Made by a program: the position numbers and the translations under genes
Shown: piece by piece, positions 24,980 to 64,000 of the stretch
How positions within the stretch are numbered: the first letter of the stretch is position 1
Layout of the letters: every line of letters begins with the position of its first letter
Assembly (NCBI RefSeq): GCF_006345805.1
Contig: NC_043002.1
Location: 111,972,001-112,036,000 of the forward strand
Length of the DNA stretch: 64,000 nt
DNA from: Octopus sinensis
Taxonomy: Eukaryota
Direction of reading: 5' to 3'
The notes under the pieces: generated by a model
What the model saw: only the letters and a program-made list of their open reading frames with translations
What the model was told of the DNA's origin: nothing
Database searches by the model: none

Positions 24980-25150
24980 TTTTTTTTTCTAGTTTCATCT
25001 CAGAGCTGCGGCCATGCTGATGCACCGCCGTTAATGTGCTATGCTTACTGCACCTAGGTTTCCCAAGCGGTCACCCATCTAAGTACTGACTAGGCTTGAC
25101 GTTGCTTAACTTCGGTGATCAGACGAGAACCGGTGCTTTCAACGTGATGT
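24980..25150 (-). mobile_element. 5S rRNA-derived SINE-like element (5S part 25042-25150, tail and poly(A) 24980-25041)
   Basis: Minus strand CACGTTGAAAGCACCGGTTCTCGTCTGATCACCGAAGTTAAGCAACG...AGTACTTAGATGGGTGACCGC is metazoan 5S-like and is followed by GGCGGTGCATCAGCATGGCCGCAG...GAAAC and an A run. Confidence 0.85.
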
Positions 25151-25151
25151 A

Positions 25152-25281
25152 GGCACAAGGCCCGAAATTTTGGGGGAGGTGGTCAGTCAATTAGATCGAC
25201 CTCAGTACGCAACTAATACTTAATTTATCGACCCTGAAAGGATGAAAGCCAAAATCGACCTCGGCGGAATTTGAACTCAGA
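25152..25281 (-). mobile_element. SINE family C fragment
   Basis: Nin-like segment TTTATCGACCCTGAAAGGATGAAAG. Confidence 0.75.
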
Positions 25282-28068: not shown

Positions 28069-28215
28069 ATCAGAATGGATATTTACTATTCTATCATTTC
28101 ATTATACTATAGTATATTATATTATTATAAGATATTGAATAAAACGGGAAAACCAAAGTTGGAATTTCTTTGAGTAATATATTCTTCTATACGCAATCAT
28201 ACTCACCCGTGTATA

Positions 28216-28297
<82 letters not shown>

Positions 28298-28329
28298 TTT
28301 ATTTAAAGCAGCAGAAAATTCAACAAAAC

Positions 28330-28367
28330 CTGTTACTCTGAGTTTCACGTTGCCGTTCATCGGACAG
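28330..28367 (-). ncRNA. Type I hammerhead motif, C4 core variant
   Basis: CUGU-CCGAUGA-ACG(GCAA)CGU-GAAACUCAGAGUA|ACAG. Confidence 0.7.
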
Positions 28368-28459
28368 TTTTTGCTAGAATAGAACCGATATCGGTTCTAT
28401 TCCAGCAAAAACTGTCCGATGAACGGCAACGTGAAACTCCGGTCCTATTCTAGCAAAAA

Positions 28460-28497
28460 CTGTCCGATGAATGGCAACGTGAAACTCAGAGTAACAG
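28460..28497 (+). ncRNA. Type I hammerhead motif, C4 core variant (a truncated third copy lies at 28412-28439)
   Basis: CUGU-CCGAUGA-AUG(GCAA)CGU-GAAACUCAGAGUA|ACAG. Confidence 0.7.
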
Positions 28498-28598
28498 GTT
28501 TTGTTGAATTTTCTGCTGCTTTAAATAAAGCATATTACTCTACCACTGGTATTTGAGTACTCTTTTTCCACCTTGTTTCACATTTATGTGTTTACTCC

Positions 28599-28659
<61 letters not shown>

Positions 28660-28663
<4 letters not shown>

Positions 28664-36443: not shown

Positions 36444-37299
36444 TTAAGCATTAATTATTCACGAGCATCCTAATAAGTCTTTGTCTTCGTTGGCAAATAT
36501 GAAAAAAATCGTTGGCGAGCTATAACTGCAACTAACATTAGATTCAGAAGAATATATTTGAGGAACACACATTTTTTTCCGCTAGGCACGAAAAGGTTTG
36601 AGATTATATATATATATATATATAATAATAATAAATATTAGGGAATAAATCCAAATTTACAGGGAAAAATCAGATTTAGGATTAAATCCAATTTTATAGT
36701 AAAATATTATATAATATAATTCGAGACAAACCACTATTTTGCAAAACAAACAAGGAAAGACTTAATCAATACATAAAAATTTTTAATATAAAGAAATAAA
36801 CCACCACTATGTAAAATTGCATCTACGAACATACGCATACATGAGTATCTAAACACAGCTTCAGACGTCATATATATAAAGTTAGTCCAAACATGAAAAC
36901 ACAAAGAGAAAACACAACAACAACGCGAGGACGTGGAACAAGTATAGTATTATTGGACGCTCAGGAAGGAAGGGAAGAAGGAGGATTTAATGGATTTGTG
37001 TGTTCCTCAAATATATTCTTCTGAATCTAATGTTAGTTGCAGTTATAGCTCGCCAACGATTTTTTTCATATTTGCCAACGAAGACAAAGACTTATTAGGA
37101 TGCTCGTGAATAATTAATGCTTAAATTAAAACAGATTAGGAGATCGAAAATCCACCTGACGAATGTCATTGAAGACATGAAACGATTGTAGTGGCGGTTT
37201 ATTTCTTTATATTAAAAATTTTTATGTATTGATTAAGTCTTTCCTTGTTTTTTTGCAAAATAGTGGTTTTGTCTCGAATTATATTATATATATATATAT

Positions 37300-37439: not shown

Positions 37440-37804
37440 CTAAACGCGAACCGGTCTTTCTTCTAAACTATGTCTTGTAAGAAAAAAAATTATATTGACT
37501 TAAATATATATTCTTTAACCTTTTAAAACAAGCCTTCTGTAGTTTTTTCACTTTTTACTATTTTCTATATATTCAACCACGTGCTTTCACAAACCAACTT
37601 TCTTATCTATATATATATATATATCCTCCGTTAAATCCTCCTTCTTTCTTTCCTTTCCTGAGCGTCCAATAGCACTATACTTGTTCCACGTCCTCGCGTT
37701 GTTGTTGTGTTTTCTCTTTGTGTTTTCATGTTTGGACTAACTTTATATATATGACGACTGAAGCTGTGTTTAGATACTCATGTATGCGTATGTTCGTAGA
37801 TGCA
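36444..37804. repeat. Three interleaved inverted-repeat pairs with Penelope-like end fragments
   Basis: A 36444-36571/36998-37124; B 36708-36808/37189-37290; C 36817-36990/37631-37804. Confidence 0.9.
37152..37194 (+). ncRNA. Minimal type I hammerhead ribozyme motif
   Basis: CCAC-CUGACGA-AUGUC(AUUGAA)GACAU-GAAAC(GAUU)GUA|GUGG. Confidence 0.82.
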
Positions 37805-59924: not shown

Positions 59925-59959
59925 GTTTCCGACGAAGAGCTCCGCTCGAAACGTTAAAC
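59925..59959 (+). ncRNA. Type I hammerhead motif, C4 core variant
   Basis: GUUU-CCGACGA-a-GAGC(UCC)GCUC-GAAACGUU|AAAC; downstream sequence is shared with 37631-37750. Confidence 0.72.
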
Positions 59960-63620: not shown

Positions 63621-63963
63621 TGAATCAATATTATCGTTAAAGGCACGAAATTGCGTTAGACCAACTGGTTGATAACTGATGAGGAATTAGAGACCTTCTG
63701 TGCTTGTTTTCCGTTCGTCTGAGCATTTACTATATGTTTTATAAATTGTCATTCTGAGTCACTTTTTCGTTTGTGCCTTTACTATACATTTTTTAACTTA
63801 CTGATTAACGGAACGCAAAGAACCCTTAATTTTATTCACAGTATATATATATGAGTGTGTGTGTGTCTGTGTGTGTATGCATGTGTGTATATATGTACAT
63901 ATATGAATATATATACAAATATATATATACACTTAATTATAAAGTAGCAAAAATATCACAAAA

Positions 63964-64000
63964 ACTGTTACTCAGAGTTTAACGTTCCCGATCGTCGGAC
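63964..64000 (-). ncRNA. Degenerate hammerhead motif of the 28330 family, cut by the window end
   Basis: GU-CCGACGA-UCG(GGAA)CGU-UAAACUCUGAGUA|ACAG. Confidence 0.45.

What the first reader, a model, noticed from the sequence alone, without database searches (positions are those of the whole stretch)
28295..28530. Palindrome with three C4-variant hammerheads (CCGAUGA) and a GNRA-capped stem II
Seen: one minus-strand copy, a palindromic apex (AGAACCGATATCGGTTCT), then two tandem plus-strand copies with the first truncated, all between (TA)n tracts. The same C4 change occurs in an unrelated family at 59925 (CCGACGA) and in the 63964 copy. Inference: the inverted plus partial tandem terminal repeat layout is the PLE insertion signature, and U4C is a recurrent tolerated core variant here.
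Basis: partly seen in the sequence, partly recalled or inferred. Interest (0 to 1): 0.7.

Follow-up and report, generated by a model that had tools for sequence, protein, structure and literature searches.

The report
Penelope stub with C4-core hammerhead
The palindrome is a short two-armed copy of a known kind of jumping gene, and its hammerhead RNA motif carries a normally damaging core change (U to C) that thousands of copies in two unrelated element families inherited from their parent elements, so the changed motif is likely still of use to them, although cutting is untested.

Summary
The locus is a 309-bp stub of a Hydra-clade Penelope-like element (PLE) in a (TA)n tract; relatives carry a 723-aa ORF with Hydra motifs. 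The arms end at two fixed sites, one each, in 35 of 35 head-to-head pairs. The scan noted this anatomy before on other DNA. Non-C cores, nearly all U4, outnumber C4 (2016 vs 1202), yet C4 is not decay. It marks an ORF-bearing subfamily (119 of 128 copies), is the state of an older sister family, and the younger U4 subfamily nests inside the C4 group. The 59929 family is Neptune-type, with C4 in 70 of 100 listed among 9061 copies. U4C is known from a viroid, and I could not read the main paper on PLE hammerhead variants. This copy would fold into a 96-bp hairpin and is predicted inactive. Cleavage by C4 is untested. Verdict: a modest new variant of a known kind, and a ready-made C4/U4 pair for testing whether PLEs need hammerhead cleavage.

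The parts
28208..28297 (.). (TA)n target tract, left
   Evidence: (TA)n is the stated Hydra insertion preference (PMC8557442 section 11)
28292..28389 (-). Inverted, 5'-truncated pseudo-LTR arm ending at the 'short' fixed end; complete C4 hammerhead (core 28357-28363, predicted cut 28334/28333)
28377..28402 (.). Perfect 26-bp palindromic apex; the arms meet at the element's own self-complementary ATAT (28388-28391)
   Evidence: L024 has the same apex
28390..28439 (+). Partial tandem copy: 5' strand of stem I, C4 core (28416-28422), stem II, GAAA and half of stem III; no cleavage site
   Evidence: family D2, 94% identical to the next copy
28440..28535 (+). Pseudo-LTR 3' part with a complete type I minimal hammerhead: core 28464-28470 (C4 at 28465), 3-bp stem II with GCAA loop 28471-28480, GAAA 28481-28484, palindromic stem III 28484-28492, predicted cut after 28493
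   Evidence: same stem I and stem III plan as Hydra-2_aMil in File S2 of PMC8557442
28536..28600 (+). One-sided 65-nt tail: the sequence that follows the upstream pseudo-LTR in full-length copies; begins with a hairpin (28536-28559)
   Evidence: (L031)
28601..28663 (.). (TA)n target tract, right
59929..59958 (+). C4 hammerhead (core to 3' strand of stem I) of an unrelated Neptune-type PLE family
63940..64000 (-). Older sister-family copy with C4 but G12 changed to U (decayed); cut by the window end

Best explanation
The locus is a 5'-truncated, two-armed insertion of a Hydra-clade Penelope-like retroelement, and its C4 hammerhead core was inherited from an ORF-bearing subfamily rather than acquired by decay; the C4 motif likely remains a slow but selected ribozyme in the parent elements. 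Shown: family identity, subfamily structure, arm anatomy, and C4 as the ancestral state with a later return to U4. Inferred mechanism of insertion: the element's RT-endonuclease nicks both strands of a (TA)n tract and primes reverse transcription twice on element RNA, once at the pseudo-LTR end and once about 65 nt further down at the tail end. Both cDNAs stop early and are joined head-to-head, here at a self-complementary ATAT, and a short template slip duplicated 48-50 nt. Inferred role of the motif: weak, dimer- or protein-assisted cleavage of tandem precursor transcripts that is not needed for cDNA synthesis, so that C or U is acceptable at position 4 while the other core bases are kept. 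This particular copy is predicted inactive because a read-through RNA would form a 96-bp hairpin.
For: Full-length elements: L031 (U4) and L177 (C4). Intact 723-aa ORF P0001 with RWK, DKT, YRDD, CxCX5C, CxxC and CxH (motifs named in PMC8557442 section 11). Counts: C4 1202, non-C 2016 (99 of 100 listed are T), CpG-decay control 70. Linkage to a diagnostic base outside the core: 119 of 128 G59 copies are C4, 68 of 72 A59 copies are U4, 27 of 36 sister copies are C4. In the sister family decay of the core CpG goes both ways (16 CG, 10 CA, 6 TG, 1 AG of 33). In a tree built without position 4 the U4 clade (99/97) nests in the C4 group, with the sister family outside (100/99). ORF dN/dS between the C4 and U4 subfamilies is 0.11 over 589 codons. 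Between the two C4 masters, the 4 changes among 38 hammerhead positions fall at N7, loop II, 11.1 and loop III (P = 0.015 with 7 free sites). Arms: 35 of 35 head-to-head pairs have one short and one tailed end (P = 1.5e-11) and 67 of 70 in a wider set. Either arm can carry the ORF, which excludes simple fold-back for those copies. Two internal RT start sites, two-strand priming and cleavage-independent insertion were shown in vitro for another PLE (PMC11167929). Second lineage: 9061 copies, 70 of 100 listed C4, decay control 205; of 14 copies found by flank alone 7 are C and 7 T at position 4, while G5, A6, A13, A14, A15.1 and U16.1 are invariant.
Against: No cleavage was measured and no read-level RNA evidence was obtained. 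U4C considerably lowers activity in vitro (PMC3088659 discussion), and single changes in the CUGA turn gave low activity in a mutational scan (PMC9901934 passages). Invariance of the 10 other core bases between masters is not significant by itself (0 of 10 against 34 of 203 flank differences). Pair 10.1-11.1 is a mismatch in about half of G59 copies and in 71 of 72 A59 copies, and the isolated monomer does not fold better than shuffles (z = -0.9), so the motif may be very weak in both states. The youngest and most numerous subfamily (2.0% vs 3.1% divergence) is U4, which could mean U4 is favoured. The tree rests on about 130 columns, 41 of 101 eligible rows and a midpoint root. My junction-microhomology test resolved only 9 of 30 junctions and was inconclusive. 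3 of 70 pairs break the one-each rule.
Confidence: 0.72

Rival explanations
1. Same element and same insertion mechanism, but the C4 motif is catalytically dead or nearly so and is kept only as an RNA structure (a protein-binding or RT-pausing fold) or by short-term inertia.
For: Hammerhead catalytic mutants did not affect insertion of another PLE in vitro, and no RNA-seq reads ended at its cut site (PMC11167929). U4C is damaging in vitro. Only about 1-2% of arms begin at the cut site. Stem II is weak.
Against: Changes between C4 masters avoid the catalytic bases and fall at loops and N7. C4 persisted between families whose ORFs are about 57-75% identical in amino acids. 7 of 11 arms that begin exactly at the cut site are from the C4 subfamily (read by eye; weak).
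Confidence: 0.22
2. C4 copies are decayed U4 copies, or U4 copies are CpG-decayed C4 copies, within one homogeneous family.
For: Non-C copies are the majority (2016 vs 1202). C4-G5 forms a CpG, and some T4 copies in the G59 and sister groups do look like CpG decay (8 of 128 and 8 of 36).
Against: The opposite-strand CpG product occurs only 70 times. Position 4 is tightly linked to positions outside the core. The two arms of one insertion agree at position 4 in 57 of 58 pairs. The ORFs of the two groups differ at 59 synonymous sites.
Confidence: 0.02
3. The palindrome arose by fold-back of a single cDNA or by later DNA rearrangement, or it is a MITE or microRNA hairpin.
For: The arms are nearly identical and often stop near the same position. 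Rfam gives a sub-threshold mir-745 match at 28340-28439 (35 bits against a cut-off of 62).
Against: The arms end at two different fixed sites (35 of 35). In L180, L181, L183 and L184 the untailed arm carries the ORF while the tailed arm is short, so neither arm can be a copy of the other. The sequence is the pseudo-LTR of an ORF-bearing element.
Confidence: 0.04

Closest known systems
Hydra clade of C-terminal EN+ Penelope-like elements (Craig et al. 2021, PMC8557442; passages, section 11 and part 2 of the supplement read)
   Same: RWK, DKT, CxCX5C, CxxC and CxH motifs; (TA)n target; pseudo-LTR tandem, inverted 5'-truncated copy and one-sided tail; hammerhead with the same stem I and ACTC-N-GAGT stem III as Hydra-2_aMil; mismatch at 10.1-11.1 as in many Hydra rows.
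   Different: All 26 Hydra rows of File S2 have U4 (the descriptor was CUGANGA-based). Here a large subfamily and its sister family have C4. The unit is 3.3 kb (stated: generally under 3 kb), the tail is 65 nt (stated: 30-40 bp), and the hammerhead differs from that listed for Hydra-1_oBim.
Minimal dimer-type PLE hammerheads (Cervera and de la Pena 2014, PMC4209133; parts 1-2 of 4 read)
   Same: Type I motif in the pseudo-LTR, palindromic short helix III, low activity expected as a monomer; opposite-strand pairs 100-700 bp apart were noted.
   Different: The core variant named in the parts read is U3-A8, not C4. Helix II here is 2-3 bp with a GNRA loop rather than 7-8 bp.
Natural U4C hammerhead of a viroid (as cited in Perreault et al. 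2011, PMC3088659; passages and section 8 read)
   Same: The same core substitution, described as lowering activity in vitro but enough for infectivity in vivo.
   Different: A viroid variant with full tertiary contacts; here the state is inherited by thousands of genomic retroelement copies in a minimal motif.
PAc Poseidon element of the green anole (Frangieh et al. 2024, PMC11167929; parts 1-2 of 4 read)
   Same: Two internal RT start sites bracket the tail; both target strands are cut and extended; the hammerhead is protein-assisted and not needed for insertion in vitro.
   Different: A different clade; its hammerhead overlaps the ORF start. The strict one-arm-per-site pairing is not stated in the parts read.

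Membership tests
Penelope-like elements | Single ORF with RT and C-terminal GIY-YIG endonuclease | tested here: met
   P0001, 723 aa, with YRDD and a C-terminal GVVY...YTG stretch; Atlas look-alikes at 0.96-0.99, some clusters with GIY-YIG or RVT_1. Pfam and PDB sequence searches found nothing.
Penelope-like elements | Pseudo-LTR tandem, inverted 5'-truncated copy, one-sided tail | tested here: met
   L031, L177, L196; 35 of 35 pairs
Hydra clade | RWK motif, DKG changed to DKT | tested here: met
   RRLRWKAFF and NSDKTRN in P0001 (definition)
Hydra clade | CxCX5C linker; CxxC and CxH near the C-terminus | tested here: met
   CNCKSESSC, CKLC and CRH in P0001
Hydra clade | N-terminal GxKF/Y not conserved; CCHH absent | tested here: inconclusive
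   Judged by eye only; a GNKY word lies after RWK, and no alignment to reference Hydra proteins was made
Hydra clade | (TA)n insertion preference | tested here: met
   28 of 30 tails are followed directly by TATAT
Hydra clade | Placement in the Hydra clade by RT phylogeny | not tested
   Reference proteins were not available as tool sequences
Canonical type I hammerhead | Core CUGANGA | tested here: not met
   C4 in all three window cores; met in the U4 subfamily
Canonical type I hammerhead | GAAA, UH cut site and three stems | tested here: met
   Met for the copies at 28464(+) and 28363(-); not for the partial copy
Canonical type I hammerhead | G10.1-C11.1 pair | tested here: not met
   A-U in the window; A-G or A-A in many relatives
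Canonical type I hammerhead | Self-cleavage | not testable with these tools
   Needs an assay
Neptune-type PLE (59929 family) | DKG motif and CX2-5CxxC linker before the endonuclease | tested here: met
   KPADKGG and CSRSRCNTC in L197, whose two terminal repeats both carry C4; linker also in L206. Neptune versus Nematis was not resolved.
Non-LTR retrozymes | ORF-less tandem units of several hundred nt | tested here: not met
   The family has ORF-bearing masters, and ORF sequence lies beside 8 of 25 U4 and 2 of 40 C4 loci

The most novel reading that the evidence does not exclude
C4 is a functional alternative hammerhead core used by active Penelope-like elements of at least two clades. It makes up over half of one common hammerhead class in this genome (9917 C4 vs 8172 U4 pattern matches), is invisible to CUGANGA descriptors, and position 4 acts as a switch by which elements tune how much of their RNA is cut versus left whole for reverse transcription.
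Probability: 0.25. Interest if true: 0.62.

Novelty: new variant of a known kind. Interest (0 to 1): 0.38.

Why it matters
What hammerheads do for Penelope-like elements is open: they are nearly universal, yet catalytic mutants still insert in vitro (PMC11167929). This family offers two close subfamilies (ORF dN/dS 0.11) that differ at a normally invariant core base, and both amplified more than a thousand-fold. That makes it a natural pair for testing whether cleavage rate matters. It also means that CUGANGA-only searches undercount hammerheads in such genomes. The locus itself is an ordinary dead stub.

Tried and rejected
Rfam finds no hammerhead family in the window at E up to 1; the mir-745 match is a by-product of the palindrome. 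The idea that C4 marks a non-autonomous short derivative was suggested (ORF near 2 of 40 C4 loci vs 8 of 25 U4 loci) and rejected (17 of 25 cores beside a C4-type ORF are C4; L177 is full-length). CpG decay as the source of either state was rejected. Junction microhomology test: only 9 of 30 junctions resolved (2 with overlap of 3 or more, 5 with inserted bases), inconclusive. Truncation at the cut site as a genomic trace of cleavage: 128 matches vs 83 for a control position; by eye 11 of 28 vs 6-8 of 30 are exact truncations (the script labelled 14 and 15). That is about a two-fold excess, confounded by a local near-palindrome, so inconclusive. Sequencing runs: no RNA holder listed; no reads were laid, so expression and RNA ends stay open. 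Pfam and PDB gave no match for P0001. The monomer fold is not better than shuffles. Lunse, Weinberg and Breaker (RNA Biol 14:1499), the paper most likely to list C4 in PLE hammerheads, is not held; I saw only its title in a reference list. Paper searches for U4C or C4 cores surfaced only the viroid case and a CYGANGA descriptor for deep-sea RNA viromes (PMC13481778 passages). The preprint on retrozymes (passages) did not mention core variants; its supplements are closed.

Full report
Observation. A structure-aware scan of the window found 7 hammerhead candidates, 2 of them here, at 28464(+) and 28363(-). The middle copy ends at the centre of stem III and has no cut site. A 65-nt tail (28536-28600) belongs to the element. 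Rfam has no hammerhead match in the window.

What the element is. The 161-nt unit is repeated in this 2.7-Gb genome (1695 first-look candidates, 40 scored). Of the 30 best loci, 28 have TATAT directly after the tail. Paired pattern matches led to full-length copies. L031 is pseudo-LTR, ORF, pseudo-LTR over 3.3 kb, and the tail is the sequence that follows its upstream pseudo-LTR. L032 holds an intact 723-aa ORF (P0001) with RWK, DKT, YRDD, CxCX5C, CxxC and CxH, the features that define the Hydra clade in PMC8557442 (section 11). Pfam and PDB searches were blank; Atlas look-alikes scored 0.96-0.99 and included clusters with GIY-YIG or RVT_1. File S2 of that paper lists a Hydra hammerhead with the same stem I and stem III plan, and all 26 Hydra rows have U4. 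Earlier scan notes call this an octopus genome; I did not test that.

How the palindrome likely forms. In 65 loci chosen only by a 25-nt core pattern, 59 arms end at the pseudo-LTR end, 45 at the tail end and 11 elsewhere. All 35 head-to-head pairs with two fixed ends combine one of each (P = 1.5e-11). In a wider set of 120 loci it is 67 of 70. Either arm can carry the ORF, so one arm is not a copy of the other in long insertions. This fits in vitro work on another PLE, where both target strands are extended and RT starts at two internal sites that bracket the tail (PMC11167929, parts 1-2). I infer two priming events followed by a head-to-head join, here at the element's own ATAT. My test of junction microhomology was inconclusive (9 of 30 resolved). 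The scan noted the same two-end anatomy earlier for other families.

This copy is predicted inactive. A read-through RNA folds into a 96-bp hairpin at -171.2 kcal/mol; forcing the hammerhead raises this to -84.8. The partial plus full tandem alone could form a hammerhead with a 4-bp stem III within 2.3 kcal/mol of its best fold, but only if the inverted arm were not transcribed.

C4 is inherited, not decay. Exact counts are 1202 for C4 and 2016 for non-C (99 of 100 listed are T), with 0 reversed-pattern controls. If CpG decay linked the two states, the opposite-strand product would be as common, but it occurs 70 times. Among 247 distinct copies, classed by bases outside the core, 119 of 128 G59 copies are C4, 68 of 72 A59 copies are U4, 27 of 36 sister-family copies are C4, and 10 of 11 unclassed copies are C4. 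The two arms of one insertion agree at position 4 in 57 of 58 pairs. C4 copies are ORF-linked: 17 of 25 cores beside a C4-type ORF, and L177 is a full-length copy with frameshifts and C4 at both ends. Majority ORFs of the two subfamilies (15 and 23 loci) differ with dN/dS 0.11 over 589 codons. Most copies are stubs: ORF sequence lay near 2 of 40 C4 and 8 of 25 U4 loci.

Direction of change. The sister family, which includes the 63964 copy, is older (9.4% from consensus, against 3.1% for G59 and 2.0% for A59). Its core CpG decays in both directions (16 CG, 10 CA, 6 TG, 1 AG of 33), so its master was C4. In a tree of 41 of 101 eligible rows, with position 4 removed, the U4 copies form a clade (99/97) inside the C4 group and the sister family lies outside (100/99; midpoint root). 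C4 is therefore ancestral in this lineage and the youngest subfamily returned to U4.

Second lineage. The 59929 motif has 9061 exact matches; 70 of the first 100 listed are C4 and 30 are U4, and the CpG-decay control is 205. L197 has C4 in both terminal repeats, 6.3 kb apart, around a broken ORF with DKG and a CX4CxxC linker, which is Neptune-type and unrelated to P0001. Of 14 copies found by flank alone, 7 are C and 7 T at position 4, while six core positions are invariant and the other catalytic-core positions have one change each. Older relatives have U4, so C4 probably arose separately here. A generic pattern gives 9917 C4 and 8172 U4 matches (controls 165 and 202), but the C4 list is dominated by this one family.

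Is the C4 motif functional? For: between the two C4 masters of the Hydra lineage, the 4 changes among 38 hammerhead positions fall at N7, loop II, 11.1 and loop III (P = 0.015 on the most generous count of free sites), and a natural U4C viroid ribozyme is reported to work in vivo (PMC3088659). Against: core invariance alone is not significant (0 of 10 vs 34 of 203); stem II is weak; U4C lowers activity in vitro; and cleavage was not needed for insertion of another PLE. Arms that begin exactly at the cut site are about twice as common as at a control position and include C4-subfamily copies (7 of 11), but they are 1-2% of arms and the site is near-palindromic. No read-level RNA evidence was obtained. 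I favour slow but selected cleavage over a purely structural role, with real uncertainty.

Novelty and verdict. The element class, the anatomy and the U4C change are each known. I did not find C4 described as an inherited state of PLE hammerheads in the searches run or in earlier scan notes. A CYGANGA descriptor is already in use for viromes, and the most relevant paper could not be read. I rate it a new variant of a known kind, interest 0.38. Its value is the natural C4/U4 pair for testing whether PLEs need hammerhead cleavage.

Noticed in passing
window 28536-28559: The tail begins with a hairpin directly behind the short fixed end; the sister family keeps the pairing with a changed loop. 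Earlier scan notes suggest that such hairpins mark RT start sites.
   Followed up: partly
L240 (G000:C5:11749833-11749885); also L219, L222, L236, L239, L244: Both arms of these insertions begin at or within one base of the predicted hammerhead cut site; may reflect cleaved templates or a local near-palindrome.
   Followed up: partly
L046-L110, unit positions 8-11: Many arms stop at the 5' edge of hammerhead stem I. The 25-nt pattern used to pick these loci starts at position 11 and a variable stretch lies just upstream, so part of this may be an artefact.
   Followed up: no
L015 (G000:C740), just after the tail end: The tail runs 46 nt past the usual end before the TA tract, a possible third start site.
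   Followed up: no
window 29984 (-), 42545 (+), 37156 (+): Three further hammerhead candidates with canonical U4 cores from other repeat families.
   Followed up: no
window 25042-25160 (-): 5S rRNA match, 86.6 bits.
   Followed up: no
about 110 nt upstream of the hammerhead in the pseudo-LTR (e.g. L004, L070): A GAGC...GCTC-GAAA stretch resembles the stem II plus GAAA half of a second hammerhead, with no 5' core; unexplained.
   Followed up: no
G000:C1:3797475-3797498 (-): A C4 core with a different, GAAA-capped stem II, possibly a third C4 lineage; single listing only.
   Followed up: no
L206 3050-5500: The Neptune-type element has about 2.5 kb of CA-rich simple sequence between its ORF and the hammerhead, and a strongly C-rich coding strand; a C bias could favour U4 to C4 there.
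   Followed up: no
window 36907-36971 (-) and 37630-37745 (+): 3' flank pieces of the Neptune-type family without the hammerhead.
   Followed up: no
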